From a virus: a DNA stretch of 64,000 bases. The stretch spans positions 1 through 64,000 of IMG/VR virus record IMGVR_UViG_3300036772_000367; one strand, given 5' to 3'. The notes under the pieces are model-generated. The model had not been told where the DNA came from and searched no databases. It saw only the letters and a list, made by a program, of their open reading frames with translations. Each line of letters starts with the position of its first letter. Position 1 is the stretch's first letter. Shown piece by piece: positions 4,195-23,761 of the stretch. Both the position numbers and the translations under genes were made by a program.

Positions 4195-5375
4195 TGGAGA
4201 AGCTGTCGGACAAGCTACTGTCCTGGGCGTCCATCCTGGAGCCGAACACGCAGGCCCAGGCTGAGATGACCTCGGCCATGCCCTTCGTGCGTCCGCACCT
4301 GGCGTTGATGCCTGACTGCCATCTCGGAAAAGGCTCCACGGTCGGTTCTGTCATTCCGACCGAGAGGGCCATCATGCCGGCGGCGGTGGGCGTGGATATT
4401 GGCTGCGGGATGATGGCGGTGAAGACCCAGTTCACCGAGGAGCAATTCCGGGAGCGTGCCGAGCAGTATCCACTGGCGCACCTGCGCGAGGACATCGAGC
4501 TGTCCATTCCGTTGTCCAAGGGCAACGCCAACGCTCACCTGACGTCCTCGGCGGTGAGCCGGATCAGCCAGTTGGAAGGTCACGCAGAGCGGGCCAGATT
4601 CGATCCGGCGGAACGGCTGTCCAACTGGCAGTATCAGCTCGGCACGTTGGGCTCAGGTAACCACTTCATTGAGGTGACCGCCGACGAAGCTGGTTCAGTG
4701 TGGCTGTTCCTGCACTCCGGCAGCCGAGGTGTTGGCAACCGGATCGCGCAGAAGTACATCAAGGTCGCTCAACAGTGGTGCGAGCGGTGGTTCATCGATC
4801 TCCCGAATCCCGACCTTGCCTATCTGGTGCAGGACACCGAGGACTTCTGGGCCTACATACGAGAGATGAACTGGGCGCAGGAGTTCGCGTGGCTCAACCG
4901 TCAAGAAATGATGGACCGGGTGGAACGGGCTATCGAGCGGTACATGCATCGAACCGTGGCTCGGTTGGAGACGGTGCATTGCCACCACAACTTCACCCAG
5001 CAGGAGGTCCACTTCGGCCGTGAGCTGTGGGTGTCGCGCAAGGGAGCGATCCGTGCCGGCAAGGGTGAGATGGGTCTGATCCCCGGCAGCATGGGCACCG
5101 CCTCCTACGTGGTGTCGGGCCTGGGCAACGTCGCGTCGATGTCCTCGGCACCGCATGGCGCCGGTCGAGTGTTGTCGCGGGGAGCGGCCAAGCGCACCTT
5201 CGACCTGGAGGGCCTGCGTACGGCCATGACCGGCATCGAGTACCGAGACTCCGACGTGTTCCTGGATGAGCACCCGAACGCGTACAAGGATGTGGAAGTC
5301 GTGATGAAGGATGCGGCCGACCTGGTCGAGATCCAACACACGTTGCACCAGACTCTGAATGTAAAGGGGGATTGA
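4191..5375 (+). CDS. rtcB: RtcB RNA ligase
   Basis: MPDCHLG, GVDIGCG, GSGNHF, LHSGSRG, HHN, PGSMG, HGAGR motifs. Confidence 0.96.
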   Translation: MMEKLSDKLLSWASILEPNTQAQAEMTSAMPFVRPHLALMPDCHLGKGSTVGSVIPTERAIMPAAVGVDIGCGMMAVKTQFTEEQFRERAEQYPLAHLREDIELSIPLSKGNANAHLTSSAVSRISQLEGHAERARFDPAERLSNWQYQLGTLGSGNHFIEVTADEAGSVWLFLHSGSRGVGNRIAQKYIKVAQQWCERWFIDLPNPDLAYLVQDTEDFWAYIREMNWAQEFAWLNRQEMMDRVERAIERYMHRTVARLETVHCHHNFTQQEVHFGRELWVSRKGAIRAGKGEMGLIPGSMGTASYVVSGLGNVASMSSAPHGAGRVLSRGAAKRTFDLEGLRTAMTGIEYRDSDVFLDEHPNAYKDVEVVMKDAADLVEIQHTLHQTLNVKGD

Positions 5376-13135: not shown

Positions 13136-13209
13136 CGCGGAGTGGCGCAACTCGGTAGCGCGCTGGGCTCATAACCCAGAGGTCCCTGGTTCGAATCCAG
13201 GCTCCGCTA
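13136..13209 (+). tRNA. tRNA-fMet(CAT)
   Basis: cloverleaf, C1:U72 mismatch, three G-C pairs in anticodon stem. Confidence 0.93.
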
Positions 13210-13254
13210 CGTAGGATAGATGTGGGTCGGACTTAGGCCGTCAGCATATGATCT

Positions 13255-13273
13255 CTGACAACTCCATGACCAT
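13255..13273 (+). repeat. left arm of 19-bp inverted repeat (boxA-like)
   Basis: CTGACAACTCCATGACCAT is the exact reverse complement of 23743-23761. Confidence 0.9.
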
Positions 13274-13372
13274 TCCCGGTAGTCCGCCAAGCTACTGGGC
13301 TGTGCGGGGCAGTCTCCCCGTGTATCAATCCTTGACGGCCGTCCGTGTCATATAGCGGATCGGACGGCCGAT

Positions 13373-13443
13373 GACGGAGTGGCCGAGAGGCGAGGCGACC
13401 GCCTGCAAAGCGGTGCACACGGGTTCGAATCCCGTCTCTGTCT
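13373..13443 (+). tRNA. tRNA-Cys(GCA)
   Basis: cloverleaf, loop CTGCAAA, U73. Confidence 0.92.
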
Positions 13444-13505
13444 CATAGGCTCCTAGGAGGGCACCAGTTGTCTGGACTGGTGGGAGTGAGGAAAGCCCTC
13501 CGCTT

Positions 13506-13578
13506 GGGGTCGTGGCGCAATTGGTAGCGCGCCTGTCTGGCAGACAGGGGGTTGTGGGTTCAATTCCCACCGATTCCA
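13506..13578 (+). tRNA. tRNA-Ala(GGC)
   Basis: cloverleaf, G3.U70. Confidence 0.92.
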
Positions 13579-13708
13579 CGGCTGATGTTCGACTACGTGC
13601 GCCATGCCTGTAGGCGGAAGACATCAGTGGCCGGCACCAGCCTGCTGCGGCAGGGTGACCCGGCGTCCGGTCTGAGGGCTCCAACATTGTCCTCAGACCG
13701 GACCATAA

Positions 13709-13781
13709 GGGCTGCTAGCTTAATTGGAAGAGCGACTCCTTTGCACGGAGTTAGGTCGGGGTTCGAGTCCCCGGTGGTCCA
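13709..13781 (+). tRNA. tRNA-Ala(TGC)
   Basis: cloverleaf, G3.U70. Confidence 0.92.
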
Positions 13782-13883
13782 CGTGGGAATGCAGGTCAAC
13801 ATCACCTTCCCTCCCCAGGAGACTTGCATTCCCCTTTTCCAAGGAGGTGGTTGTTCATGGATTAGCTCCCCTAGGAGGTAATC

Positions 13884-14096
13884 GTGAGCAGGACCGATAA
13901 AGATCGCAAGCGCCACCATCTGCCCGAGGACGAACAGCCTCGTATCTTCCACGGTGGCGGCGACTGGCAGGGCATCAACAGGTACGTGAACATGTACTTC
14001 ACCAGGCCCGACCGGCGCCGCGCCAAGCGCGCGTGCCAGCTCGGACAGGAGTACACCAGGCCCCATCGTCACGATGGGCGCTGGATGTACTGGTAG
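13884..14096 (+). CDS. small basic protein (MSRT...W type)
   Basis: GTG after AGGAGGT. Confidence 0.65.
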   Translation: MSRTDKDRKRHHLPEDEQPRIFHGGGDWQGINRYVNMYFTRPDRRRAKRACQLGQEYTRPHRHDGRWMYW

Positions 14097-14204
14097 ACGG
14101 AGTCGGCTACCTGGGAGATACCCCGGTGCACCGGGACGGCTCAGGTCCGTTGAAATGCCGACCGCGCTGCCTGCCTCACCCCCCTGCGGTAGGCAGCGCG
14201 TCAT

Positions 14205-14278
14205 GGTGGATGTAGCTCAGCTGGCAGAGCGCCGGGCCGTGGTCCCGGAGGCGGTGGGTTCGAACCCCACCATTCACC
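14205..14278 (+). tRNA. tRNA-His(GTG)
   Basis: cloverleaf, G-1:C73, unusual C33. Confidence 0.9.
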
Positions 14279-14281
14279 CGA

Positions 14282-14346
14282 GAGAGAAAGACCAGGTTTG
14301 AATCCTGGCTGGCGACAGTCGGCAGTGTGTGAAGAGCACGCCTCTC
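14282..14346 (+). ncRNA. circularly permuted tRNA-like RNA 1
   Basis: T arm, then acceptor hairpin closed by GACA, then D arm, closed by GAGAG/CTCTC. Confidence 0.5.
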
Positions 14347-14352
14347 GTTATA

Positions 14353-14419
14353 CGCAGTGCGCCGCAACGGCCTCGTGCTTTCAGGAACCGGCCAGCCCGT
14401 TCGAGTCGGGCCACTGCGC
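14353..14419 (+). ncRNA. tRNA-like element, central TCA, defective anticodon stem
   Basis: 7-bp acceptor CGCAGTG/CACTGCG, T arm GCCCG-TTCGAGT-CGGGC, mini D arm. Confidence 0.5.
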
Positions 14420-14530
14420 AGTTCTGCCACGGCAGCTACCCGGTAAGCCCTCCGCTTCGGCCGACACGGTGCCGGGTCGTGGTAGTTGAAACGCTGCACG
14501 GAGCACTTTGGCGCCGAAGTGCTCCACCAT

Positions 14531-14604
14531 GCGGATGTAGCTCAGATTGGTAGAGCGCGACCTTGCCAAGGTCGAGGCCACGGGTTCGATCCCCGTTATC
14601 CGCT
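14531..14604 (+). tRNA. tRNA-Gly(GCC)
   Basis: canonical cloverleaf. Confidence 0.94.
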
Positions 14605-14620
14605 CGCGTTGATTTGACAT

Positions 14621-14693
14621 GCTCCTATCGTCTAGCGGCCTAGGATCTCGGATTTTCACCCCGGGGGCACGGGTTCGAATCCCGTTGGGAGTA
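14621..14693 (+). tRNA. tRNA-Glu(TTC)
   Basis: cloverleaf, one anticodon-stem mismatch. Confidence 0.9.
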
Positions 14694-14697
14694 CGAA

Positions 14698-14772
14698 GGG
14701 AAAGGTAGAGGTTCAATTCCTCTCCGCCCGGCCACATCGGGCGAGTGGTGTTAACGTGGCGTGCACATTCCC
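14698..14772 (+). ncRNA. circularly permuted tRNA-like RNA 2
   Basis: GGGAA-AGGT-T arm-CCGCCCG-G-CCA-cat-CGGGCGAG-TG-D arm-A-TTCCC. Confidence 0.7.
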
Positions 14773-14779
14773 GGCTCTT

Positions 14780-14851
14780 GGCGATTTAGCTCAGTGGAAG
14801 AGTGCTTCCGTGACATGGAAGATGTCCCAGGTTCGATCCCTGGAATCGCTA
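14780..14851 (+). tRNA. tRNA-Val(GAC)
   Basis: cloverleaf, G32. Confidence 0.9.
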
Positions 14852-14852
14852 C

Positions 14853-14925
14853 GGCGGTATAGCTCAGTCGGCAGAGCGCGCGATTCATATTCGCGTCGTC
14901 CCTGGTTCGATCCCAGGTACCGCTA
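14853..14925 (+). tRNA. tRNA-Met(CAT), elongator type
   Basis: cloverleaf, GGC start. Confidence 0.85.
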
Positions 14926-15024
14926 CGTAGTACTCACCCCGAGGTACGCCCGACGTGAGAGCAGGCGGAATTTGTCAGGTATCAGACTGATCATCTGAGG
15001 TTTTGGCGTTCGTGGTCTGCATCC

Positions 15025-15099
15025 GCTCCGTTCGTCTAGTTGGCCTAGGACATCACGTCCTCAGCGTGAAGATCATGGGTTCGAATCCCATACGGAGTA
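15025..15099 (+). tRNA. tRNA-Glu(CTC)
   Basis: cloverleaf, C33. Confidence 0.9.
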
Positions 15100-15174
15100 C
15101 ATGAGGATTCCAGGAGTGGCCACTCCCGAGATCATGCAGGACCCCGATAGCTCAGGAATCCCTGTCGGGGGAAG

Positions 15175-15260
15175 GGAAGTGCGGCGGAGATGGCGGGCCG
15201 CGCCTGACTGTAAATCAGGAGTCCGTAGGACCGTTGGAGGTTCGAATCCTCTCGCTTCCA
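15175..15260 (+). tRNA. tRNA-Tyr(GTA)
   Basis: class II cloverleaf. Confidence 0.92.
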
Positions 15261-15487
15261 CTCGCCCTGGATTGTAGCCAGGGCGAACTACGTCGCCGAA
15301 CTGGAATGGGCACGGCGTCCTGCTCACCCAGGGGATAATGTTGCATACCAGCTACGGAGCGACGACCGTCAACAAGGCTGGGAGGGTTCTAGTCAACCCG
15401 AGCCAGGAAGTGCTGATCGAGGTGGAGTTCTCGGACTGCCCTGAGTCTGGGGACAGAGAAGCTGTTGACGTCGCCCTTCCTGGTCTT

Positions 15488-15560
15488 GCGTCGTTAGCTC
15501 AGTTGGTAGAGCACCATCCTCTTAAGTTGGGGGTCGAGAGTTCGAGCCTCTCACGGCGCA
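15488..15560 (+). tRNA. tRNA-Lys(CTT)
   Basis: cloverleaf. Confidence 0.92.
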
Positions 15561-15985
15561 CTGAGTCGGAACCATTTTTGTGTTTTAGCGGTTCGCCTCA
15601 TATGACAGTTGGCGCAAACAACTTGGCATTTCTCGATTTCACGGAGAATTCGTGACCATGCCAAACCACTGCCAATCATCACACTGAGGTTAGCGATCTT
15701 GTCGTGCTGATGATCGAATTGAAGTACGACAATATCCGTCTCTCCGCAGTCAGTGCATGGATGCTCGATCAAGTAGTCGCAGATCTTGTTTCGTAGTTCT
15801 ACGCCATACTGTTTCTTCCGCGCGTAGCGTGTGGGATTGTGAATGTCCTTAGTTTTCGTATAGTATGCTGCGTTGTATGATTTGCGACATTCTTTGCAAT
15901 GTACCTGTAAGCCGTCCGCCTTGGCTTTATTCGATCCAAATTCGGAGACTGGCTTGTCGTGTTTGCAGCCGGAGCAATATTTCAT
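15551..15985 (-). CDS. HNH endonuclease with N-terminal Zn finger
   Basis: CxxC...CxxC, then PCTDCG...FDH...CANCH; lower GC; only clear minus-strand gene. Confidence 0.88.
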   Translation of the reverse strand: MKYCSGCKHDKPVSEFGSNKAKADGLQVHCKECRKSYNAAYYTKTKDIHNPTRYARKKQYGVELRNKICDYLIEHPCTDCGETDIVVLQFDHQHDKIANLSVMIGSGLAWSRILREIEKCQVVCANCHMRRTAKTQKWFRLSAP

Positions 15986-16010
15986 TGTAAGAGTCTAACA
16001 GAGTAAGAGG

Positions 16011-16083
16011 GCTCCCTTAGCTCAGGGGTGAGAGCGGCTGGCTTATATCCAGTGGGTCGGGGGTTCAATTCCTCCAGGGAGCA
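16011..16083 (+). tRNA. tRNA-Ile(TAT)
   Basis: cloverleaf, loop CTTATAT. Confidence 0.88.
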
Positions 16084-16149
16084 CGAGGGGACTCGGTCGG
16101 ATCAGGAGGGCCGAGGATATCGGGTAGCGGGCTGACCCCGATGCATGAT

Positions 16150-16221
16150 GGTCCTATAGCTCAGCGGGAGAGCACCTCGTTCACACCGAGGGGGTCGGAG
16201 GTTCAATCCCTCCTGGGACTA
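16150..16221 (+). tRNA. tRNA-Val(CAC)
   Basis: cloverleaf. Confidence 0.92.
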
Positions 16222-16401
16222 CGCCGTACATGCGGCTCCAATCGAGCGTGAGAGGAAAGATCAGCCCTTGCGATCCCGGAATCATCGGCGGGTTAAAGGG
16301 TGTCGGATGGTCTCACGGCGGATAGGGGATGAGTCCGCTAGTCTCTCTACTTGATCCAGGTGATGTTAGGAAGCGAGGGCTGTTGCGCCAGTCCTCGTCT
16401 T

Positions 16402-16475
16402 GGCTGTGTAGCCCAACGGCAGGAGGCACCTGGCTTAGACCCAGGACAGTGCACGTTCGAATCGTGTCGCAGCCA
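16402..16475 (+). tRNA. tRNA-Leu(TAG), short variable loop
   Basis: cloverleaf, Leu-type D arm, A73. Confidence 0.9.
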
Positions 16476-16603
16476 CGTGGCGCAACGGGAATTGATCACC
16501 CGTTGTTGTTGACAAAGGGCCTTGGTCTGACCCTGCCACAGAAAATTCACCCGCTCTGGCAGCTCATGTCGTCCTAGGCAACGGCGGTGGGCAGGAGCGT
16601 TAA

Positions 16604-16677
16604 ACCCCATTAGCTCAGGCGGATAGAGCGTCGCGCTACGAACGCGAAGGCCGGAGGTTCGAATCCTCTATGGGGTG
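16604..16677 (+). tRNA. tRNA-Arg(ACG)
   Basis: cloverleaf, A20. Confidence 0.93.
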
Positions 16678-16678
16678 C

Positions 16679-16912
16679 GTGACCGATCAAATCGAAGTCG
16701 AGAGACTGAAGAATGGTCTCAAGTGGATCGAGCACATTGCTACCGTGCACTGGTACGGACAGGCATTCGAGCCACATCATATGCATGCTCTCGCACAACT
16801 GGCCAGCCAGCTATGCGACGGCAAGGAATTGCCTGATTTTGATACCCGGATGCGCGCAGCGATGGAGCGCGGTCAGCAGATATCCGAGGACATGGGGAAG
16901 CACTCGGAATGA
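16679..16912 (+). CDS. hypothetical protein directly after tRNA-Arg
   Basis: GTG 1 nt after discriminator. Confidence 0.55.
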   Translation: MTDQIEVERLKNGLKWIEHIATVHWYGQAFEPHHMHALAQLASQLCDGKELPDFDTRMRAAMERGQQISEDMGKHSE

Positions 16913-17004
16913 GCGAGACGTGGACAGCCGCAGAACGATCTGGGAGAGCGCCATGGGCTGGCTGGTGGCGATGTCCCTATGTCTCTCGGATGACCTAAGT
17001 TCTT

Positions 17005-17078
17005 GTCCTTGTAGCCCAACTGGCAGAGGCGGCGGGTTTAAGCCCCGCGCGGTGTGGGTTCGAATCCCACCGAGGACA
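17005..17078 (+). tRNA. tRNA-Leu(TAA), short variable loop
   Basis: cloverleaf. Confidence 0.9.
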
Positions 17079-17107
17079 CTGCTCTGGGATATTTCAAGGG
17101 AGACAGT

Positions 17108-17281
17108 ATGAGCGGAAACAGAGCTTTCGGCTATGGCCTGGGTGCTGGAGTCGCCACCGTTTCTATTCCTATGATGTTCTCTGCTAACTTTGGGGGCGGC
17201 CTGATTCTTCTGTGCGCTGCGAGCGCGATTATCGCGATAACCGGCGGCACTGATCGGATAGTCAAGCGTATCCGGAGGTAA
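17108..17281 (+). CDS. small membrane protein
   Basis: AAGGGAG RBS; two hydrophobic helices, basic tail. Confidence 0.6.
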   Translation: MSGNRAFGYGLGAGVATVSIPMMFSANFGGGLILLCAASAIIAITGGTDRIVKRIRR

Positions 17282-17290
17282 TCGCAAGAG

Positions 17291-17363
17291 GTTCCTGTAG
17301 CCCAATGGTAGAGGCACTGGCATGAGAGGCCAGACAGTGCAGGTTCGACTCCTGTCAGGAACA
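17291..17363 (+). tRNA. tRNA-Leu(GAG), short variable loop
   Basis: cloverleaf, A32. Confidence 0.9.
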
Positions 17364-17433
17364 CGTGATCACTCGGAGTCGCGGACCGCCGCGACGTTAC
17401 TTGGCCAGCCACCGGCCCCTGTCCCTACTATTC

Positions 17434-17507
17434 GCTCCTGTGACCCAATTGGCAGAGGTACCAGAATCAGAATCTGGTTGTTGGAGGTTCGAATCCTCTC
17501 GGGAGCA
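17434..17507 (+). tRNA. tRNA-Leu(CAG), short variable loop
   Basis: cloverleaf, A32. Confidence 0.9.
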
Positions 17508-17509
17508 CG

Positions 17510-17578
17510 GCGGGAAGTCAGGGGTTCGAGTCCCCTTCGGTCCACGCAGGGGCCGGTACCTCAGCGGCAGAGGCCCGC
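17510..17578 (+). ncRNA. circularly permuted tRNA-like RNA 3
   Basis: GCGGG-AAGTC-T arm-TCGGTCC-A-cgcag-GGGCCGG-TA-D arm-CCCGC. Confidence 0.8.
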
Positions 17579-17582
17579 ATTT

Positions 17583-17656
17583 GTCCTTGTAGCCCAACTG
17601 GCAGAGGCGTCCGATTCAAGATCGGAATGTTGGGGGTTCGAATCCCTCCTAGGACA
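17583..17656 (+). tRNA. tRNA-Leu(CAA), short variable loop
   Basis: cloverleaf. Confidence 0.9.
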
Positions 17657-17657
17657 C

Positions 17658-17864
17658 ATGGCCAGTTACGATCGAGCCCTGGATGCTGCTCTCGCTGCTC
17701 AGGTGAGAGTAGGAATCACACTGGATGAGCTCTTTAGACAGAACTTGGGGAAGGAGCTTCCCATCGAGCTTCTTCTGCGAGCTTTGGAAATTAACACTCA
17801 GTGTGGCTTCCTGGCAGCACGGATCGCCGAGATTCATCTACAAGCACGAGGGAAGGCCACATGA
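17658..17864 (+). CDS. hypothetical protein directly after tRNA-Leu
   Basis: ATG 1 nt after discriminator; ATGA coupling to VWA gene. Confidence 0.55.
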   Translation: MASYDRALDAALAAQVRVGITLDELFRQNLGKELPIELLLRALEINTQCGFLAARIAEIHLQARGKAT

Positions 17865-18529
17865 GCAAGCCGGGTTACACGGCGATCTGTCTGGTGATCG
17901 ACTCGTCGGGGTCAATGTTCAGCATCAAGAAGGTCACCGAGGAGACGGTGAACGGCTTCATCACCGAGCAGGCCCAGGCCGAGGGATATCGCACCCTGCG
18001 GCTGGCGACGTTCAGCAGCGGTTGGGTGATGGATGGCAGCCCCTGGTTGGCCGACAGCGGCTCCAGCGTGCCCGCCAGCGAGGTAGAATCCTTCGTCCTG
18101 CATCCCGAGGGCGCTACGGCCCTTCTGGACGCTGTCGGCACCATGGTGACCAAGTTCGGGCAGGAGCTGGCCGACCTGGACGAGGCCGACCGGCCTGAGC
18201 ACGTGGTCTTCGCCCTGATGACCGATGGCCAGGAGAACTCCTCGCGGGAGTACACCTGGGAGCAGGTCAGCAAGATGCTGACGCATCAGCAACAGGTGTA
18301 CTCCTGGAACGTCACCTTTCTGGGTGCCAACCAGGATGCCATCGCCACGGCCAGCAAGCTGTCCATTCCGCGCGGCAGCAGCCTGACGTTCGCGGCGAAC
18401 GATCAGGGCGTCCACGGCTCGATGAGCGCCTTCAGCACCTACACGAAGTCGGCTGCCGCCGGCATGACGTACAATTACACCGACGACGATCGGATTCGCT
18501 CGTCGGGTCTGGCGCCGAAGCAGCCGTAG
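17861..18529 (+). CDS. von Willebrand factor A domain protein
   Basis: MIDAS DSSGS, T-A-L-L-D-A, MTDGQENSS. Confidence 0.88.
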   Translation: MSKPGYTAICLVIDSSGSMFSIKKVTEETVNGFITEQAQAEGYRTLRLATFSSGWVMDGSPWLADSGSSVPASEVESFVLHPEGATALLDAVGTMVTKFGQELADLDEADRPEHVVFALMTDGQENSSREYTWEQVSKMLTHQQQVYSWNVTFLGANQDAIATASKLSIPRGSSLTFAANDQGVHGSMSAFSTYTKSAAAGMTYNYTDDDRIRSSGLAPKQP

Positions 18530-18537
18530 CGTCAGGG

Positions 18538-18610
18538 GCGCTCCTAGCTCAATGGATAGAGCATCGCTTTCCTACAGCGACGGTTGGGGGTTCGACTCCC
18601 CCGGAGTGCA
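18538..18610 (+). tRNA. tRNA-Arg(CCT)
   Basis: cloverleaf, A20. Confidence 0.92.
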
Positions 18611-18772
18611 CACCCTTTCATTCCGGGGTTATGGAATGCCCTTACGCCGATATGGGGTTAGGATGAGGCCGGGAGTAGGTCGACACTCACCAGTTGTCTA
18701 ATCGGAAGTGGTCGTACTCGTAGTACACCTCGTTTCCCCGAGCAACGAGACGAAATGAGGCGGCCCACCTAA

Positions 18773-18846
18773 GCGCTACTAGCTCAGCTGGACAGAGCAC
18801 CACTTTCCGAAAGTGGAAGTCGGGGGTTCGAGTCCCTCGTAGCGCA
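18773..18846 (+). tRNA. tRNA-Arg(CCG)
   Basis: cloverleaf, A20. Confidence 0.92.
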
Positions 18847-18847
18847 C

Positions 18848-18991
18848 GCAGGAGAGGCACTGGAGGATGCGGCGGGTCAGCCGCCGCTGCGTACCGTCGT
18901 CCAGGGACACCCTGGCCGGTGTGTAGGAATACTCAACCATCCGTTGTCCCTTGAGTAAGGACAGGGGGTTCGACTCCCCCACCTCTCCTGC
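18848..18991 (+). ncRNA. 144-nt multi-stem RNA with tRNA T arm
   Basis: 10-bp closing stem GCAGGAGAGG/CCTCTCCTGC, GGGGG-TTCGACT-CCCCC, three internal arms. Confidence 0.6.
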
Positions 18992-18994
18992 CCG

Positions 18995-19066
18995 TGCGAT
19001 GTCGTCCAACGGTCAGGGCACCGAGCTGATAACTCGGGAACGAAGGTTCAATTCCTTCCGTCGCAA
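18995..19066 (+). tRNA. tRNA-Ile(GAT)
   Basis: cloverleaf. Confidence 0.9.
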
Positions 19067-19141
19067 CTCGGAGAGGTCACTGCGGAATACCGGGGTTGCG
19101 TTACCGTACGCGTGACAACCGTCGCGCACCTCTCCGTTCAA

Positions 19142-19216
19142 CGCCTTGTAGCTCAATGGACAGAGCCGGGAGCCTCTACCTCCTGTGAGTTGGGGGTTCG
19201 AGTCCCTCCAGGGCGG
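19142..19216 (+). tRNA. tRNA-Arg(TCT)
   Basis: cloverleaf, A20, C33, 7-nt variable region. Confidence 0.82.
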
Positions 19217-19231
19217 CGTAGTAAAGACCAT

Positions 19232-19302
19232 GGCATCATAGCTTAGGGGCAAAGCATTCGCCTGAAAAGCGAGAGACGGAGGTTCGATTCCTCCTGTTGC
19301 CA
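19232..19302 (+). tRNA. tRNA-Phe(GAA)
   Basis: cloverleaf. Confidence 0.9.
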
Positions 19303-19325
19303 CGCAGAAAAGGAGATCAGACACA

Positions 19326-19562
19326 ATGGCTCATTGTTCAGCATGTAAGACTAAGGCGAAGTGCACGATCGAGGGCTGTGTCATCTTCGGTGGCCATTTC
19401 CGTACGAGCAGCTACTGCAAGATCGATACTCCGCAGTGTGTTGCGGTGATACACCACTCCACGTACGCGGCCGTGCAGGACACCAAGAGCACCAAGGTGC
19501 TGGTGATGTCCCCGACAATGTTCATCAAGTTCGTGAACTCGGATCTCGTCCAGTCGCGGTAG
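19326..19562 (+). CDS. small Cys-rich protein; C-terminus DUF397-like
   Basis: AAAGGAG RBS; FRTSSYC...CVAV...AVQDTK. Confidence 0.55.
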   Translation: MAHCSACKTKAKCTIEGCVIFGGHFRTSSYCKIDTPQCVAVIHHSTYAAVQDTKSTKVLVMSPTMFIKFVNSDLVQSR

Positions 19563-19568
19563 TCCGGT

Positions 19569-19641
19569 GCCTGCGTAGCTCAACTGGCAGAGCCCCGTTC
19601 TTGTAAAACGGTGGTTGGGGGTTCGAGTCCTCTCGCAGGCT
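19569..19641 (+). tRNA. tRNA-Thr(TGT)
   Basis: cloverleaf. Confidence 0.92.
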
Positions 19642-19721
19642 CGTCTTCCCGTGAGCGTGCCCGTGCGCGCGGGAGGAAAGATCGAAGAACCGGCGGTACA
19701 CGGGATTCTCCGGTTACATCT

Positions 19722-19793
19722 GCCCTTTTAGCTCAGTGGTAGAGCACCTTCTTGGTACGAAGGGGGCCGCGAGTTCGATCCTCGCATTGGGCT
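19722..19793 (+). tRNA. tRNA-Thr(GGT)
   Basis: cloverleaf, two U.U mismatches in acceptor stem. Confidence 0.85.
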
Positions 19794-19901
19794 CGGGAAG
19801 TATCCCAGGTAACATAAACTGATTCGGCTCGGTGAGGGTCCTCGGTGCTTCCTAGTAAAAGGACGGGCTGCTTCACATGGCAGGGGAGTAGCCCGTCCTT
19901 C

Positions 19902-19974
19902 GCCTCAGTAGCTCAGTTGGCAGAGCGTTCCTCTCGTAAAGGAAAGGCCGGAGGTTCAATCCCTCTCTGAGGCT
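19902..19974 (+). tRNA. tRNA-Thr(CGT)
   Basis: cloverleaf. Confidence 0.92.
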
Positions 19975-19975
19975 C

Positions 19976-20074
19976 GTTGTGAGTAGCTCAGTGGCAGAGC
20001 GGTAGCAGCAGGGTGAAACCTCGCTGTGCATCGACGTCAGTTTATGACACAGGTTCGATTCCTGTCTCACAACT
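19976..20074 (+). ncRNA. tRNA-like RNA with elongated, non-canonical anticodon arm
   Basis: 8-bp acceptor GTTGTGAG/CTCACAAC, canonical D and T arms. Confidence 0.75.
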
Positions 20075-20079
20075 TTCAT

Positions 20080-20153
20080 TGGGTAGTAGGGGAAATGGCA
20101 GACCCACCTGGCTCTGACCCAGGGTTTTGGAGGTTCGAGTCCTCCCTACCCAG
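20080..20153 (+). tRNA. tRNA-Gln(CTG)
   Basis: cloverleaf, U1-A72. Confidence 0.9.
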
Positions 20154-20170
20154 CTTTTTAGGAGGGCAAT

Positions 20171-20407
20171 GTGCGATTAACTGAAGCACAAGAGCGAACC
20201 CTAGAGGAAGCAACCTGCCAGAAATGCTTCCAAGCAGGTGGATTGACAGTCGAGTACAGACTGACCGCCATGCCGATCGGCAGCTTCTCACTGGCTGGTG
20301 CCCAGATGAAAGTCAGTGCCCTTGAGTGGCCCTGGCTGATGTGCCGGCACTGTGGCGCGGAATGCCAGGGCAAGCAAGTCACTACGACCACTCCGGAGGG
20401 CACGTGA
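20171..20407 (+). CDS. zinc-ribbon protein
   Basis: CQKC...CRHC; AGGAGG RBS. Confidence 0.65.
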   Translation: MRLTEAQERTLEEATCQKCFQAGGLTVEYRLTAMPIGSFSLAGAQMKVSALEWPWLMCRHCGAECQGKQVTTTTPEGT

Positions 20408-20631
20408 GCGAGGATCTCTACGAAGTCGGTATGCCGGTTGTGGGTTTGAACAGGTATGGGGACGTGGTCGAAGGTGTCTACCACGGCGCCACTGAGCAGA
20501 CCTATGTCTGTCGAGGGCATCTCGTCTCCACACCTGTTCACCATATTGTCGATGACACGGGCCTTGGCCGAATGGTTTTCCCCGACACTGTCGTAGCACT
20601 CACTGATCTGGAGAGGATGCCCCGGGCATGA
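20404..20631 (+). CDS. hypothetical protein
   Basis: GTGA coupling, GGAGG RBS. Confidence 0.6.
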   Translation: MSEDLYEVGMPVVGLNRYGDVVEGVYHGATEQTYVCRGHLVSTPVHHIVDDTGLGRMVFPDTVVALTDLERMPRA

Positions 20632-21107
20632 CGGACGACCAGGTACCGAATGAGGATGCTTCGGCACCGTACGACGGCCCCAGTGGCGAGATCATCGCCC
20701 AGACCCTCCGGGAGGCCCTGGGGATGCTGAAGAACGGCTACGACGACACCAAGGAGATCCTGGGTGCTTCGGTGGCCGCCGCGCTCGTGGCGCTGTTCCA
20801 GGAGGAGCTGGACGCCATCACCGAACACCTCTCCGGATCGGACGGCGAGCCGGCAGCGGTGGCTGTCTCTCCCTGTCGCAGTGAGACGTGTGCAGCCGAT
20901 CTGGCCCAGGCCCTGCTGGATGAGTACTGGAAGGGCATCGAGGAAGCGCCCGCCGTGGAGATCCCGGAGAACGGCGGCGCGGCCATGGTGGAGCTGCATG
21001 TACGCGGTCAGCATGTGTCCCTGTCGAAGGAGTTCGACACGCTGCCTGAGCTGGCCGTCGGTCTGGATGACATGGCGACCAAAGTCCGAGGGCTGATCAA
21101 GGAGTAA
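20628..21107 (+). CDS. acidic hypothetical protein
   Basis: ATGA coupling, GC3-rich. Confidence 0.65.
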   Translation: MTDDQVPNEDASAPYDGPSGEIIAQTLREALGMLKNGYDDTKEILGASVAAALVALFQEELDAITEHLSGSDGEPAAVAVSPCRSETCAADLAQALLDEYWKGIEEAPAVEIPENGGAAMVELHVRGQHVSLSKEFDTLPELAVGLDDMATKVRGLIKE

Positions 21108-21114
21108 GGAGCGC

Positions 21115-21189
21115 GGGTCGTTAGCTCAAATTGCGCAGAGCATCCGGCTTTTACCCGGAGGGTTCTGGGTTCGAATCCCAGGCGGCCTA
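21115..21189 (+). tRNA. tRNA-Lys(TTT)
   Basis: cloverleaf; D loop lacks GG. Confidence 0.88.
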
Positions 21190-21193
21190 CTAA

Positions 21194-21264
21194 TCCGGAT
21201 TGGTCTAATGGCAGGACAACGCTCTTTGGAAGCGTGAGCAAAGGTTCGAATCCTTTATCCGGAG
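21194..21264 (+). tRNA. tRNA-Gln(TTG)
   Basis: cloverleaf, U1-A72. Confidence 0.9.
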
Positions 21265-21279
21265 CAGAGGTGATGTTGA

Positions 21280-21732
21280 TTGAGTTACTGTCGATTGTCC
21301 GATGACGATTACCAATGTGATGTGTACGTGTACGAGGACGCCAGCTTCGGCGGATGGACTACCTGGGTGGCATCCCACCGGCCTGTGCTGGTCGATCTTC
21401 CGGACCCCATTGATCTGCCCGACGAGCACACCGAGGCTCAGTTCGCGGCGTTCTACGAGCGGTGGCGCGCGGTAGGCAAGTTGGTGGAGAAGGCCGAGAG
21501 AATCGAGATCGGCCTGCCCCATGACGACGGCCAGTTTCGCCATGGCTCGCCGGGAGAGTGTGCGGACAACCTCCTGCGGCTGCGGGAGATGGGCTACAAC
21601 GTGCCCGACTACGCCATCGAACGACTGCGGGCAGAGCAAGCCGAGGGTCACACGAATCCGCTAAAGTCGATGGACGATCTCATGAAAGAGATCACGGGGG
21701 AACTTGCGGGCGAAGTTGGTGATGCTGGATGA
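21280..21732 (+). CDS. conserved-looking phage protein (MSYCR...CDVYVYE)
   Basis: TTG after GAGGTGA. Confidence 0.7.
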   Translation: MSYCRLSDDDYQCDVYVYEDASFGGWTTWVASHRPVLVDLPDPIDLPDEHTEAQFAAFYERWRAVGKLVEKAERIEIGLPHDDGQFRHGSPGECADNLLRLREMGYNVPDYAIERLRAEQAEGHTNPLKSMDDLMKEITGELAGEVGDAG

Positions 21733-21911
21733 AAAGTACGGCCGGGCGCCCCAGCATGGGTAAGCGGACACGCAAGGGTGGTGCTGAGTACGACGCCTTC
21801 TCGCGGTACTGGCGACACTTCATGAGCCAACGCCGAGGTGTCATCAAGACCTTGGCTCGTCGCCGTGAGCGACGTCAAGCACACCAGTGGGATTGGACCA
21901 CCGGCTGGTGA
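21729..21911 (+). CDS. small basic protein
   Basis: GAEYDAFSRYWR...RRERR. Confidence 0.55.
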   Translation: MKSTAGRPSMGKRTRKGGAEYDAFSRYWRHFMSQRRGVIKTLARRRERRQAHQWDWTTGW

Positions 21912-22044
21912 CAGAGTTCGGGACCTCTTGTCCGCGTATGGCACGCAGGGCACGGGATACAACACCATCGCGATCTCCCAACGGCACGTGACGTGGTGGA
22001 GATCTTGGGAAACGCTGGTTGCGCACTGGCGCCCGGACCCCTAG

Positions 22045-22131
22045 GGAGGTATGGCAGAGTGGTAATGCGCTGTCCTGCTAAGACAAGGCTCGGTTTAAAA
22101 CCCGACGAAGGTTCAATTCCTTCTACCTCCG
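22045..22131 (+). tRNA. tRNA-Ser(GCT)
   Basis: class II cloverleaf, G73. Confidence 0.92.
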
Positions 22132-22133
22132 CT

Positions 22134-22254
22134 GGCTAGTGGTGTAACGGCGCACACCCGAAGATCTCGGCAATACTAGTTGAGCCTGAAGCGTGAGTGC
22201 ACCGCGCGGAAAAGAGAAGCTTCGGTAGGTTCGGTTCGACTCCGGCGGCCTACC
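22134..22254 (+). ncRNA. tRNA-like RNA with about 60-nt structured insert at the anticodon position
   Basis: D arm GTGT-AACGGC-GCAC, CCGAAG/CTTCGG stem, TTCGACT T loop. Confidence 0.55.
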
Positions 22255-22271
22255 CTCGTGAAAGGATATTC

Positions 22272-22667
22272 ATGGCTCGGTCCGAAGGTAAGTTCAGTGT
22301 GGGAAACCACAACGAGCAGATCCTGTATCTGCGTGGTGCCGAGCGAGATGCCGATCTGATGGTGGCGGCCTTCTTCAAGTCCGGTGTCGGCAAAGCAATC
22401 GCTGAGGTGCTGAACAATCATCTGGATGAGGTTATTCATACCATCATGACGTACACAGGGAGTGTACGACCGGGAATCCCGGTGAAGCCCGACAACAGCG
22501 AGGCACGAAAGACGACGATCAACGCGGGGGTCACAACAGTACTTAGCCAACTCAACAGTTCCGATGCTGCTGCCGTCTCCCTGATGACCGGACTCAGCAA
22601 TACTGAACTCGACGATCTCGGTGGATTGCCGTCCGACTCGATCTATGACGATCGGGCGTCGGACTGA
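22272..22667 (+). CDS. hypothetical protein
   Basis: AAAGGA RBS. Confidence 0.6.
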   Translation: MARSEGKFSVGNHNEQILYLRGAERDADLMVAAFFKSGVGKAIAEVLNNHLDEVIHTIMTYTGSVRPGIPVKPDNSEARKTTINAGVTTVLSQLNSSDAAAVSLMTGLSNTELDDLGGLPSDSIYDDRASD

Positions 22668-23017
22668 TGACTGATTCCCTAGTCATACAATTCACGATCG
22701 ATCTGGCGGATCTCCTGGGTAGCCCGCACCACACCTTCACCCAAGAGATGATGCGCGGGATGGGAGACAAGACAGTGCCGCTACGGAAGGGAGAGGGTGG
22801 CCCTCAGATCGGCTACGGCGTCATTGTGGAAGACCAGGACACTGAACACCTCTTCCTGTACGCCACGGTTACCAACTCACCCGAGCTGTTCGCGGACGTG
22901 ATGTCGTCCTACAGTGTTGGCTTCACCGAGTGCACCAGCCCGCTGCACGGCCGGGATCGGCACACCGAGGACGGTTGTGCCCTGCGGCAGATGTCAGACA
23001 AGCTGGATGTGGATTGA
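22667..23017 (+). CDS. hypothetical protein
   Basis: TGATG coupling. Confidence 0.6.
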   Translation: MTDSLVIQFTIDLADLLGSPHHTFTQEMMRGMGDKTVPLRKGEGGPQIGYGVIVEDQDTEHLFLYATVTNSPELFADVMSSYSVGFTECTSPLHGRDRHTEDGCALRQMSDKLDVD

Positions 23018-23022
23018 AAGAA

Positions 23023-23094
23023 CGGGGCGTAGCTCAGCGGTAGAGTGCCTGATTTGGGATCAGGAAGTGGCAGGTCCGACTCCTGTCGCCCCGA
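23023..23094 (+). tRNA. tRNA-Pro(TGG)
   Basis: cloverleaf; T loop TCCGACT. Confidence 0.9.
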
Positions 23095-23095
23095 C

Positions 23096-23272
23096 GTGAA
23101 ACAATGTTCGAGCTGTGGATTGATGAAGTCTTATGATGAATTTCATCGGAATGTGGCTCGGTCAGATGGATATCAGAATGCGTGCAAGGATTGCCGTAAG
23201 ACTATAAGAGGCGTTTCGGTTGTTCGAGGAGAGCGGGTTCTTCGACTACCTTGCTCAGTAGTTGTTTGGTAG
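23096..23272 (+). pseudogene. truncated HNH endonuclease (Zn finger only)
   Basis: KQCSSC...EFHRN...DGYQNACKDCRK matches N-terminus of 15551-15985; no HNH core. Confidence 0.65.
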
Positions 23273-23281
23273 TCGATCGAT

Positions 23282-23352
23282 GCGAGTGTCGTCTAACGGC
23301 AGGACAACAGCCTTCCAAGCTGTTTACGCGGGTTCGAATCCCGTCACTCGCT
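23282..23352 (+). tRNA. tRNA-Gly(TCC)
   Basis: cloverleaf. Confidence 0.92.
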
Positions 23353-23451
23353 CTCGTCTCTAGGCTTCTCGCAGTTCTGAGAAGCTATCGGGTCCACTCT
23401 CTACCACGCCAAAGGTGGAGATATCGAGTGGTGACGTAATCACCTGTACAA

Positions 23452-23534
23452 GGAAGGTCGCGGCGACGGTAGCCAGCTCGATTCGAAATCGAGTGCCAGG
23501 GTGACACCTGAAGGTTCGAATCCTTGTCCTTCCG
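23452..23534 (+). tRNA. tRNA-Ser(CGA)
   Basis: class II cloverleaf with mismatches. Confidence 0.82.
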
Positions 23535-23538
23535 CCCA

Positions 23539-23626
23539 GGAGGGTGGCGCCTATGGTTGGTACCTCGTCTTGAAAACGAGTATGCCGGGTGAAAGCCCGA
23601 GGGTTCAATTCCTTCTCCCTCCGCCA
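23539..23626 (+). tRNA. tRNA-Ser(TGA), CCA encoded
   Basis: class II cloverleaf, GCCA end. Confidence 0.85.
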
Positions 23627-23640
23627 GACAGTAGTATCGA

Positions 23641-23728
23641 AGAAGCGTAAGCCGAGTTGGTCTACCGGCGCCCGCCTGGAACGCGGGAAGGGGTCACACC
23701 CGTGCGAGTTCGAGTCTCGCCGCTTCTG
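23641..23728 (+). tRNA. tRNA-Ser(GGA)
   Basis: class II cloverleaf. Confidence 0.88.
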
Positions 23729-23742
23729 CTCATATTAGATCT

Positions 23743-23761
23743 ATGGTCATGGAGTTGTCAG
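23743..23761 (+). repeat. right arm of 19-bp inverted repeat
   Basis: ATGGTCATGGAGTTGTCAG, 14 nt after the last tRNA of the main cluster. Confidence 0.9.

What the first reader, a model, noticed from the sequence alone, without database searches (positions are those of the whole stretch)
17510..17578. Circularly permuted, anticodon-less tRNA mimic with Ala-like acceptor (best of three copies)
Seen: between tRNA-Leu(CAG) (ends 17507) and tRNA-Leu(CAA) (starts 17583) a tRNA 3' half comes first (anticodon-stem strand GCGGG, variable AAGTC, T arm AGGGG-TTCGAGT-CCCCT, acceptor strand TCGGTCC, A73). A 5-nt linker follows, then the 5' half (GGGCCGG, TA, D arm CCTC-AGCGGCA-GAGG, CCCGC). The acceptor has G3.U70 and A73. 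Established: T-acceptor-D order is the topology of the bacterial YrlA tRNA-like domain and of permuted tRNA genes. Unlike YrlA there is no long Ro60/Rsr-binding stem, and no TROVE gene lies in this window. Inference: processing of the flanking tRNAs frees an L-shaped RNA whose free ends sit where the anticodon loop should be. It could be a decoy for tRNA-targeting defences or elbow-binding proteins, or be circularised by the phage RtcB and reopened at the acceptor.
Basis: partly seen in the sequence, partly recalled or inferred. Interest (0 to 1): 0.9.

Follow-up and report, generated by a model that had tools for sequence, protein, structure and literature searches.

The report
Stand-alone permuted alanine-tRNA mimic
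A 69-base gene wedged between two tRNA genes of a soil phage folds like an alanine tRNA with its halves swapped and no anticodon. A dozen other phage tRNA clusters keep it with compensating mutations, so it is a real tRNA look-alike, related to bacterial Y RNAs but without their protein-binding stem.

Summary
Window 17510-17578 (+) is a four-helix cloverleaf in the order closing stem, variable loop, T arm, acceptor hairpin, D arm, closing stem. It sits 2 nt after tRNA-Leu(CAG) and 4 nt before tRNA-Leu(CAA).

It is not a chance match or a decayed tRNA pair. I found 12 homologues: 11 between tRNA genes in other contigs and one as a Y RNA in Microbacterium phage Zooman. 98% of base-pair cells are paired, and 11 of 21 pairs show compensatory double changes (4.1 expected; 0 of 500 shuffles reach this). 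The tertiary 15:48 pair covaries as well.

G1-C72, G3.U70 and A73, the alanine identity set, never change, although pairs 4:69, 5:68 and 6:67 flip.

The closest known kind is YrlA, the tRNA-like Y RNA. This element lacks the Ro60-binding helix, and the complete 155-kb genome has no TROVE gene. Five of the six other phage records that carry the family do encode TROVE.

Most likely it is cut out with the tRNAs. RNase P may then open it and CCA may be added, as in M. smegmatis YrlA. Alanine charging and any decoy role are untested. RtcB circularisation into a decoding tRNA is disfavoured.

This scan had already noted two permuted elements elsewhere in this genome; they share the topology, not the sequence.

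The parts
17434..17507 (+). Upstream tRNA-Leu(CAG), 74 nt, class I shape; its 3' processing sets the element's 5' end
   Evidence: ARAGORN; Rfam tRNA 53.7 bits
17508..17509 (+). CG: the generic 3' trailer start of this phage's tRNAs, not specific to the element
   Evidence: All 36 array tRNAs are followed by C and 22 of 36 by CG. CG precedes all 11 array-embedded homologues
17510..17514 (+). Closing stem, 5' strand (GCGGG); equivalent to anticodon-stem positions 39-43
   Evidence: Pairs with 17574-17578. Two of the five pairs show compensatory changes in homologues
17515..17519 (+). Variable loop AAGUC (positions 44-48), with C48
   Evidence: Position 48 covaries with D-loop position 15: G15-C48 in most copies, A15-U48 in L178, L198 and L275
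17520..17536 (+). T arm: 5-bp stem and the canonical UUCGAGU loop
   Evidence: The loop is invariant in 13 of 13 copies and three stem pairs covary
17537..17544 (+). Acceptor 3' strand UCGGUCC (66-72) plus discriminator A73
   Evidence: U70, C72 and A73 are invariant. T arm plus this strand is identical over 21 nt to ordinary tRNA-Ala(UGC) genes of unrelated phage contigs
17545..17549 (+). Linker CGCAG closing the acceptor hairpin; acts as 3' trailer and 5' leader together
   Evidence: Varies in sequence and length (5-7 nt) among homologues; the first base is C in 11 of 12 distinct copies (U in L179) and the last is most often U
17550..17556 (+). Acceptor 5' strand GGGCCGG (1-7); predicted RNase P cut just 5' of G17550
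   Evidence: 7 bp with 17537-17543, including G3.U70. Four of the seven pairs covary. The cleavage is inferred from M. smegmatis YrlA (PMC4201824)
17557..17573 (+). U8, A9 and the D arm (CCUC / AGCGGCA / GAGG) with A14, G15, G18, G19 and A21
   Evidence: U8, A9, A14 and GG are invariant; two D-stem pairs covary (Zooman)
17574..17578 (+). Closing stem, 3' strand (CCCGC); equivalent to positions 27-31, with no position 26
17579..17582 (+). AUUU spacer; the 5' leader of the next tRNA and the 3' tail of the released RNA
   Evidence: Homologues have AUCU, AUUC, GUUUC, GUAA, GGCAA, AUCAA or AUCUA
17583..17656 (+). Downstream tRNA-Leu(CAA); RNase P cleavage at its 5' end sets the element's 3' end
   Evidence: ARAGORN; Rfam tRNA 56.2 bits
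4191..5375 (+). RtcB RNA ligase gene; context only, probably not needed for the element
   Evidence: Pfam RtcB E 8e-115. RtcB was not found in three of the four other element-bearing phage records searched

Best explanation
The element is a conserved, functional small RNA gene. It is a stand-alone version of the tRNA-like domain of YrlA-type Y RNAs, built on a tRNA-Ala acceptor and T arm. It is transcribed as part of the phage's tRNA operon. The enzymes that trim its neighbours (RNase P on the downstream tRNA, 3' processing on the upstream tRNA) release it as a roughly 75-nt RNA. That RNA folds into the tRNA L-shape, with its two ends where the anticodon loop would be. Its acceptor is a full 7-bp helix followed by A73-C, like every tRNA gene of this phage. 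RNase P therefore probably cuts the linker just before G17550, and the 3' side is then trimmed to A73 and given CCA, as shown for M. smegmatis YrlA. This would leave a two-piece, anticodon-less tRNA look-alike that alanyl-tRNA synthetase could charge through the invariant G3.U70/A73. It cannot decode. It most likely works by occupying or recruiting a protein that recognises the tRNA acceptor or elbow. Shown here: the structure, its conservation and covariation, the invariant alanine identity set, and the array context. Inferred: release, RNase P opening, CCA addition, charging and the cellular role.
For: The anatomy is exact, and all the core tertiary-contact bases checked are present: U8, A14, G15-C48, G18, G19, U54-U55-C56 and A58. 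The re-ordered halves are called a tRNA, whereas 0 of 1000 shuffles and 0 of 4 dimeric junctions are. Twelve homologues were found. L178 and L179 came from synteny with the neighbouring vWA gene. L180-L183 came from metagenomes. L184-L186, L198 and L275 came from pattern scans. Microbacterium phage Zooman came from blastn. Of 12 distinct sequences, 98.0% of pair cells are paired against 84.0% in shuffles. Eleven of 21 pairs have changes on both sides against 4.1 +/- 1.2 expected, 0 of 500 shuffles reach this, and the slid controls give at most 4. U70.G3, C72-G1 and A73 are invariant, while 4:69 (GC 7, CG 3), 5:68 (GC 7, CG 3, AU 2) and 6:67 (CG 9, AU 3) flip. The Levitt pair covaries as G15-C48 or A15-U48. 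The neighbours differ (Leu/Leu, Ala/Pro, Cys/Pro, Ile/Asp, Phe/Asp, Ala/Ala), yet the spacing stays tight: 1-2 nt upstream where a tRNA was called and 3-5 nt downstream. The base after A73 is C, as after all 36 array tRNAs. Precedent: M. smegmatis YrlA has a 7-bp acceptor, is cut by RNase P in vitro, and is cleaved and CCA-tailed in vivo (PMC4201824; 10.1101/312249). An exact 19-bp inverted repeat brackets the tRNA cluster, which fits one processed transcript.
Against: There are no expression, end-mapping or charging data. The four closest complete relatives by portal protein (G001-G004) have few or no tRNAs and lack the element. Fold energy is not better than shuffles. L198 and L275 were found with a pattern that required G3 and T70, so only 10 of the 12 distinct rows test that invariance without bias. 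The alignment was fitted to the model, which favours pairing. L180 and L183 carry a T-stem defect and a 4:69 mismatch, so some copies may be decaying. In G000 the base before G1 is G, not the U that RNase P prefers. Most YrlAs keep a closed acceptor loop (10.1101/312249), so opening is not guaranteed. No partner protein is identified in this genome.
Confidence: 0.6

Rival explanations
1. It is an accessory Y RNA that works with Ro60/Rsr, supplied by the host here and by the phage elsewhere, for example as a second tRNA-like module of a Ro60-exonuclease particle.
For: Five of the six other phage records that carry the family encode a TROVE protein: Zooman, G006, G007, G008 and G009. G005, the closest large relative of G000, also has TROVE beside its tRNAs. 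Zooman's homologue (53.9 bits) is a true Y RNA, with the GNCGAA(N)G motif of Chen 2014 upstream, TROVE 2.7 kb downstream and RtcB 4 kb upstream. The arrays in L184 and L186 also hold full-length YrlA-like hits.
Against: The element has no room for a Ro60-binding helix, because tRNAs abut both ends. G000 is rated complete and has no TROVE candidate at all. The bacterial genome G010 that carries a copy has none either. The TROVE co-occurrence may simply reflect shared ancestry among large actinophages.
Confidence: 0.15
2. It mainly serves the operon: a tRNA-shaped spacer that recruits RNase P or RNase Z, or stabilises the polycistronic tRNA precursor, with no function as a free RNA.
For: It is always embedded between tightly packed tRNAs. 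tRNA-like structures are known RNase P processing signals (mascRNA, cited in 10.1101/312249). The cluster is bracketed by a 19-bp inverted repeat.
Against: Other tRNA pairs in the same array abut with 0-15 nt and need no such spacer. A processing signal would not need invariant G3.U70 and A73, an intact D arm or the 15:48 covariation.
Confidence: 0.08
3. It is a true circularly permuted tRNA gene. The ends are ligated (by RtcB or another ligase) into a circle, the acceptor is opened, and a decoding alanine-accepting tRNA results.
For: The topology matches permuted tRNA genes. The phage has RtcB. Spacer plus trailer would give a loop of 6-7 nt, and some 7-nt versions would read CUA or CAA.
Against: Loop length is 6 nt in most copies. 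There is no constant anticodon, U33 is not constant, position 37 would be C, and no alanine anticodon ever appears. RNase P and RNase Z ends are not RtcB substrates. RtcB was not found in G006, G007 (rated complete) or G009. No bacterial enzyme is known to make the required cuts (10.1101/312249).
Confidence: 0.04
4. It is a non-functional relic: the 3' half of one tRNA-Ala copy and the 5' half of the next, left after deletions; or simply a dimeric-tRNA false positive.
For: T arm plus acceptor 3' strand is identical over 21 nt to ordinary tRNA-Ala(UGC) genes, and the 3' half scores best against tRNA-Ala genes. Dimeric junctions reach 26-46 bits with the YrlA and R1 models.
Against: It is conserved in 12 other loci with different neighbours and with compensatory changes in all four helices. 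The two halves pair with each other, unlike real junctions. No single tRNA matches both halves.
Confidence: 0.03

Closest known systems
YrlA (Y RNA-like A, Rfam RF02553), especially M. smegmatis YrlA (Chen et al. 2014, PMC4201824; structure in Wang et al. 2018, bioRxiv 10.1101/312249)
   Same: T arm, acceptor hairpin and D arm in permuted order. The same tRNA core contacts, including 15:48 covariation. No anticodon loop. A 7-bp acceptor, as in the M. smegmatis RNA that RNase P cuts and that receives CCA. A recognisable homologue inside a true Y RNA of Microbacterium phage Zooman.
   Different: No Ro60-binding helix and no GNCGAA(N)G motif. The closing stem is only 5 bp and ends at neighbouring tRNAs. 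No TROVE gene anywhere in this genome. It scores 28.3 bits against a gathering score of 69. It lies inside a tRNA array rather than beside rsr. The alanine identity set is invariant.
Circularly permuted tRNA genes of Cyanidioschyzon merolae and some archaea (Soma et al. 2007, as cited in 10.1101/312249)
   Same: The 3' half comes before the 5' half, joined by a short linker across the acceptor ends; all the other tRNA parts are present.
   Different: No anticodon loop can be rebuilt. No bulge-helix-bulge splicing system is known in bacteria or phages. The product would not decode.
Two-piece (permuted) tmRNA, e.g. Rfam cyano_tmRNA RF01851
   Same: Permuted gene order with the T arm and acceptor 3' strand first. 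G3.U70 alanine identity. Weak partial hits of RF01851 to the family (26 bits).
   Different: No tag reading frame and no pseudoknots. A full D arm instead of the reduced tmRNA D loop. Only 69 nt long.
tRNA-Ala and alanine-accepting minihelices (G3.U70 identity rule; established knowledge)
   Same: G1-C72, G2-C71, G3.U70 and A73. T arm plus acceptor 3' strand identical over 21 nt to real phage tRNA-Ala(UGC) genes.
   Different: Halves swapped, no anticodon arm loop, and a D arm unlike those of tRNA-Ala genes.

Membership tests
YrlA / bacterial Y RNA (RF02553) | tRNA-like domain in the order T arm, acceptor stem-loop, D arm | tested here: met
   covariation
YrlA / bacterial Y RNA (RF02553) | Ro60-binding helix formed by the RNA's 5' and 3' ends, with the conserved GNCGAA(N0-1)G motif (PMC4201824) | tested here: not met
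   tRNA-Leu genes start 2 nt and 4 nt from the 5-bp closing stem. The YrlA model aligns only positions 17-92
YrlA / bacterial Y RNA (RF02553) | Encoded near a Ro60/Rsr (TROVE) gene | tested here: not met
   No TROVE match in the complete 155,226-bp genome. Met in five of the six other phage records that carry the family
YrlA / bacterial Y RNA (RF02553) | Reaches the Rfam gathering score (69 bits) | tested here: not met
   28.3 bits
Circularly permuted tRNA gene | 3' half upstream of 5' half, with mutually pairing acceptor and anticodon-stem strands | tested here: met
Circularly permuted tRNA gene | Joining the ends restores a 7-nt anticodon loop with U33, an anticodon and a purine at 37 | tested here: not met
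   Loops of 6-7 nt, no constant triplet, C at position 37
Alanine-accepting RNA (tRNA-Ala identity) | G3.U70 wobble pair in a 7-bp acceptor helix, plus A73 and G2-C71 | tested here: met
   G3.U70, G1-C72 and A73 are invariant in 12 of 12 distinct homologues; G2-C71 holds in 9 of 12
Alanine-accepting RNA (tRNA-Ala identity) | A free 3' CCA end and actual charging by AlaRS | not testable with these tools
   Requires RNase P opening and CCA addition; inferred only from M. smegmatis YrlA
Two-piece tmRNA | Tag-peptide reading frame and pseudoknots | tested here: not met
   ARAGORN finds no tmRNA in the genome, and the 69-nt element has no room for them

The most novel reading that the evidence does not exclude
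Phages carry a dedicated, anticodon-less, two-piece alanine acceptor. RNase P opens the element, CCA is added, AlaRS charges it, and the phage uses it outside decoding. Possible uses are a sink or decoy for host factors that attack or sense tRNA acceptor ends, a drain on AlaRS, or an alanine donor for an aminoacyl-tRNA-dependent transferase. Because many canonical YrlAs beside rsr genes carry the same G1-C72/G3.U70/A73 helix, alanylation could be an overlooked property of a whole subclass of Y RNAs.
Probability: 0.3. Interest if true: 0.85.

Novelty: new variant of a known kind. Interest (0 to 1): 0.62.

Why it matters
YrlA RNAs have been defined by their link to Ro60. Here the tRNA-like half exists alone, under clear selection, inside phage tRNA operons, in a genome with no Ro60. 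That separates the function of the tRNA mimic from Ro60 tethering and gives a minimal 69-nt object to test.

The unchanging alanine identity set yields a sharp hypothesis that is cheap to test: RNase P cut, CCA addition, AlaRS charging. Chen et al. 2014 do not mention alanine at all. Standard tRNA finders and phage annotation miss these genes, so tRNA arrays may hide more non-decoding tRNA look-alikes.

Tried and rejected
1. Megablast and tblastn of window pieces against cultured phages found nothing close. The portal protein showed only about 40% identity to Bixzunavirus and Myrnavirus.

2. The five large IMG/VR relatives (G001-G005) have 0-7 tRNAs. They give no element with either the YrlA model or my models.

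3. The pattern TCGGTCCA-N2-12-GGGCCGNTA in IMG/VR returned 97 stretches. All 81 matches I screened (in 80 listed loci) were chance or coding hits, apart from one pair of adjacent tRNA genes.

4. The strict two-block pattern found nothing in IMG/VR or GTDB genomes, but found four metagenome contigs.

5. The Rfam YrlA model over 151 Actinomycetota genomes gave no hit above the gathering score and 53 genomes with sub-threshold hits. It therefore gave no unbiased YrlA sample. That tally includes two genomes flagged unpublished (G058, G158); no specific claim rests on them.

6. One 45.7-bit hit (L275:2430-2498) proved to be a tRNA-Arg/tRNA-Val junction and was removed.

7. Cluster C mycobacteriophages have only the known Ro-linked YrlA, about 190 nt upstream of their Ro gene, and no array-embedded copy.

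8. I looked for a single parental tRNA. The 3' half resembles tRNA-Ala, while the D arm resembles the phage's short Leu and Val tRNAs; no tRNA matches both halves.

9. Literature searches found no paper on stand-alone permuted tRNA mimics in phage tRNA arrays.

Full report
**Observation.** The order is: a 5-nt strand GCGGG, variable loop AAGUC, a T arm with the canonical UUCGAGU loop, the acceptor 3' strand UCGGUCC, A73, a 5-nt linker, the acceptor 5' strand GGGCCGG, U8-A9, a D arm with A14, G15, G18, G19 and A21, and CCCGC pairing back to the first strand. The element begins 2 nt after the discriminator of tRNA-Leu(CAG) and ends 4 nt before tRNA-Leu(CAA). The minimum-free-energy fold is this cloverleaf, but its energy is unremarkable for such G+C-rich sequence (z -1.46).

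**Scores and controls.** The Rfam YrlA model aligns only its tRNA-like core (positions 17-92 of 114) at 28.3 bits, far under the gathering score of 69. I do not count that score as evidence on its own. The abutting tRNA-Val/tRNA-Met junction scores 26.2 bits. Fifty-three of 151 Actinomycetota genomes give comparable sub-threshold hits; that tally includes two genomes flagged unpublished, G058 and G158, from which nothing specific is taken. Chen et al. also warn about dimeric tRNAs (PMC4201824). With the halves re-ordered and any 7-nt loop inserted, ARAGORN calls a tRNA. It calls none for 1000 shuffled versions or for four re-ordered real tRNA-tRNA junctions of the same array.

**Genome context.** The window is the first 64 kb of a 155,226-bp IMG/VR virus record rated 100% complete. 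It has 59% G+C and 40 tRNA genes, an RtcB gene at 4191-5375, and a portal protein about 40% identical to those of Bixzunavirus and Myrnavirus mycobacteriophages. No TROVE (Ro60) candidate exists anywhere in the genome, and no tmRNA either. The four complete relatives by portal protein have 0-7 tRNAs and no copy of the element, so they could not test conservation.

**Homologues.** The vWA-domain gene just downstream (17861-18529) has a 73%-identical relative and a 53%-identical relative on Logan contigs. Both contigs carry a similar tRNA array, and both carry the element: 83 and 75 bits with a single-sequence covariance model. In those contigs it sits between different tRNAs: Leu(UAA)/Leu(GAG) and Leu(UAA)/Leu(CAA). 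Pattern scans added four metagenome contigs (Ala or Cys, then the element, then Pro(CGG)). They also added four IMG/VR contigs (Ile or Phe, element, Asp; Ala(CGC), element, Ala(UGC)) and a 30-tRNA array on a 605-kb contig of an Actinomycetota MAG. In the 11 array-embedded homologues the element starts no more than 2 nt after the upstream tRNA's discriminator, where an upstream tRNA was called, and stops 3-5 nt before the next tRNA. One hit of 45.7 bits turned out to be a tRNA-Arg/tRNA-Val junction and was removed.

**Covariation.** The alignment holds 13 copies, 12 of them distinct (A4).
- 98.0% of pair cells form standard pairs, against 84.0% in column shuffles.
- 11 of 21 pairs change on both sides, against 4.1 +/- 1.2 expected. 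No shuffle out of 500 reaches the observed values, and sliding the partners by 1-3 columns gives at most 4 such pairs.
- All four helices contribute.
- The tertiary Levitt pair also covaries. A15 occurs only with U48 (L178, L198, L275). G15 goes with C48 except in L180/L183, where it faces U48.

Caveats: the alignment is fitted to the model, and the sequences are related. Even so, the margin is large. This rules out a decayed tRNA pair or a chance cloverleaf.

**The alanine signature.** Within the acceptor helix, pair 4:69 is G-C in seven copies and C-G in three. Pair 5:68 is G-C, C-G or A-U, and pair 6:67 is C-G or A-U. By contrast U70.G3, C72-G1 and A73 are the same in all 12 distinct copies. 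Two of these copies (L198, L275) were found with a pattern that required G3 and T70, so the unbiased count is 10 of 10. A G.U pair that survives while its neighbours flip points to selection for that pair itself. G3.U70 with A73 is the identity set of alanyl-tRNA synthetase (established knowledge). The T arm plus acceptor 3' strand is identical over 21 nt to ordinary tRNA-Ala(UGC) genes of unrelated phage contigs, and the element's 3' half scores best against tRNA-Ala genes. The D arm looks more like those of the phage's short Leu and Val tRNAs, so no single parental tRNA is evident.

**Relation to YrlA and Ro60.** Blastn found one cultured carrier, Microbacterium phage Zooman. There the homologue (53.9 bits; G3.U70 and A73 kept) is one unit of an unannotated tandem set of Y-RNA-like units. 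Each unit is preceded by GAGCCGAAG, which fits the GNCGAA(N)G Ro60-binding motif of Chen et al. RtcB lies 4 kb upstream and a TROVE gene 2.7 kb downstream.

The four IMG/VR carrier records also encode TROVE. So five of the six other phage records with the family have Ro60, and the arrays in L184 and L186 additionally hold a full-length YrlA-like hit. Cluster C mycobacteriophages have only the known YrlA, about 190 nt upstream of their Ro gene.

The element is therefore kin to YrlA. It fails three defining features of that family: it has no Ro-binding helix, no TROVE gene in its genome, and a score well under the gathering threshold. I file it as a new variant of the kind, not as a member.

**Mechanism.** All 36 tRNAs of the cluster are followed by C, and 22 of them by C-G. 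The conserved CG before the element is thus simply the upstream tRNA's trailer. The element's own A73 is likewise followed by C in 11 of 12 distinct copies. An exact 19-bp inverted repeat brackets the cluster (13255-13273 with 23743-23761), which fits a single processed precursor.

The simplest reading is that RNase P, acting on the downstream tRNA, and 3' processing of the upstream tRNA release an RNA of about 75 nt. M. smegmatis YrlA is the one YrlA known to have a 7-bp acceptor. It is cut by RNase P in vitro and is cleaved, nibbled and CCA-tailed in vivo (PMC4201824; 10.1101/312249). I therefore think the same happens here, giving a two-piece molecule that AlaRS could charge. These steps are inferred. 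What the RNA then does is unknown. Candidates are a decoy or sink for acceptor- or elbow-binding proteins, a cofactor, or a Ro60-linked role supplied by the host.

**The RtcB idea.** Joining the released ends would give loops of six nucleotides in most copies and seven in four. There would be no constant triplet, U33 would not always be present, position 37 would be C, and an alanine anticodon would never appear. RNase P and RNase Z ends are not RtcB substrates (established enzymology). RtcB was not found in G006, G009 or G007, the last rated complete. I give this reading about 4%.

**Wider point, seen in passing.** A relaxed pattern requiring only the T loop, U70, C72, A73, G1, G3, G7, U8-A9 and the start of a D arm matched 151 places in IMG/VR and GTDB genomes. 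In 81 of them the two acceptor strands pair at 6-7 of 7 positions. In 27 of those 81 loci a TROVE gene lies within the fetched 8 kb or less. So many canonical YrlAs of Verrucomicrobiota, Myxococcota, Actinomycetota and other phyla also carry the alanine set. Chen et al. 2014 do not mention alanine at all. The pattern forced G3 and T70, so I cannot give a frequency.

**Earlier notes of this scan.** Two other permuted elements of this genome were reported before: e1-5789058 at 14698-14772, and e1-5789088 near 110 kb beside DUF7873. My family model does not group them with this element. It scores 38.6 bits for one 110-kb module and nothing for the others. They share the topology, not the sequence. 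Several independent permuted mimics in one genome strengthen the view that this phage selects for the shape.

**Verdict.** This is a new variant of a known kind: a Ro-module-less, array-embedded, alanine-type YrlA-like tRNA mimic.

Noticed in passing
window 16402-16476, 17005-17079, 17291-17364, 17434-17508, 17583-17657; also L178 and L179: All five tRNAs with leucine anticodons are 74-75 nt and lack the long variable arm that bacterial tRNA-Leu normally has. The same short forms recur in the two related contigs.
   Followed up: no
window 14280-14346: Directly after tRNA-His lies another three-hairpin fold: a GAGAG/CUCUC closing stem, a T-arm-like hairpin (UUUGAAU loop), a 6-bp hairpin and a third hairpin that is not D-like. 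It has the same topology but is not homologous to the Ala-type element.
   Followed up: partly
window 14695-14779: A second permuted tRNA-like element, whose acceptor 3' strand is followed by G-CCA inside the linker. Zooman has a similar one (L187:2238-2308, with GCCA).
   Followed up: partly
window 18848-18994 and 19976-20079: Two unannotated tRNA-like stretches in normal order. One is 147 nt, with a 10-bp terminal stem and a 3' T arm. The other is 104 nt, with an 8-bp acceptor, D arm, T arm and an oversized anticodon region.
   Followed up: no
window 23538-23623: A likely tRNA-Ser(UGA) with encoded CCA that ARAGORN misses; the Rfam tRNA-Sec model gives 34.4 bits.
   Followed up: no
window 13136-23729: Every one of the 36 array tRNAs is followed by C at position 74, and 22 of them by C-G. 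An exact 19-bp inverted repeat (13255-13273 with 23743-23761) brackets the cluster.
   Followed up: yes
L196-L331 (IMG/VR and GTDB loci): 81 permuted T arm-acceptor-D arm elements with G1-C72, G3.U70, A73 and a 7-bp self-pairing acceptor. 27 of them lie within 8 kb of a TROVE gene, so canonical YrlAs of many phyla carry the alanine identity set.
   Followed up: partly
L187 (Microbacterium phage Zooman OK040793.1, 96.4-97.2 kb): At least five tandem, unannotated Y-RNA-like units, each beginning GAGCCGAAG...CGGTTATC. They lie between three tRNA-Ala genes and the endolysin and TROVE genes, with RtcB 4 kb upstream.
   Followed up: partly
L275 (Actinomycetota MAG, 605-kb contig): A 30-tRNA array in a bacterial contig holds a copy of the element just before tRNA-Pro(CGG). 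No TROVE or RtcB match was found in that genome's assembly.
   Followed up: partly
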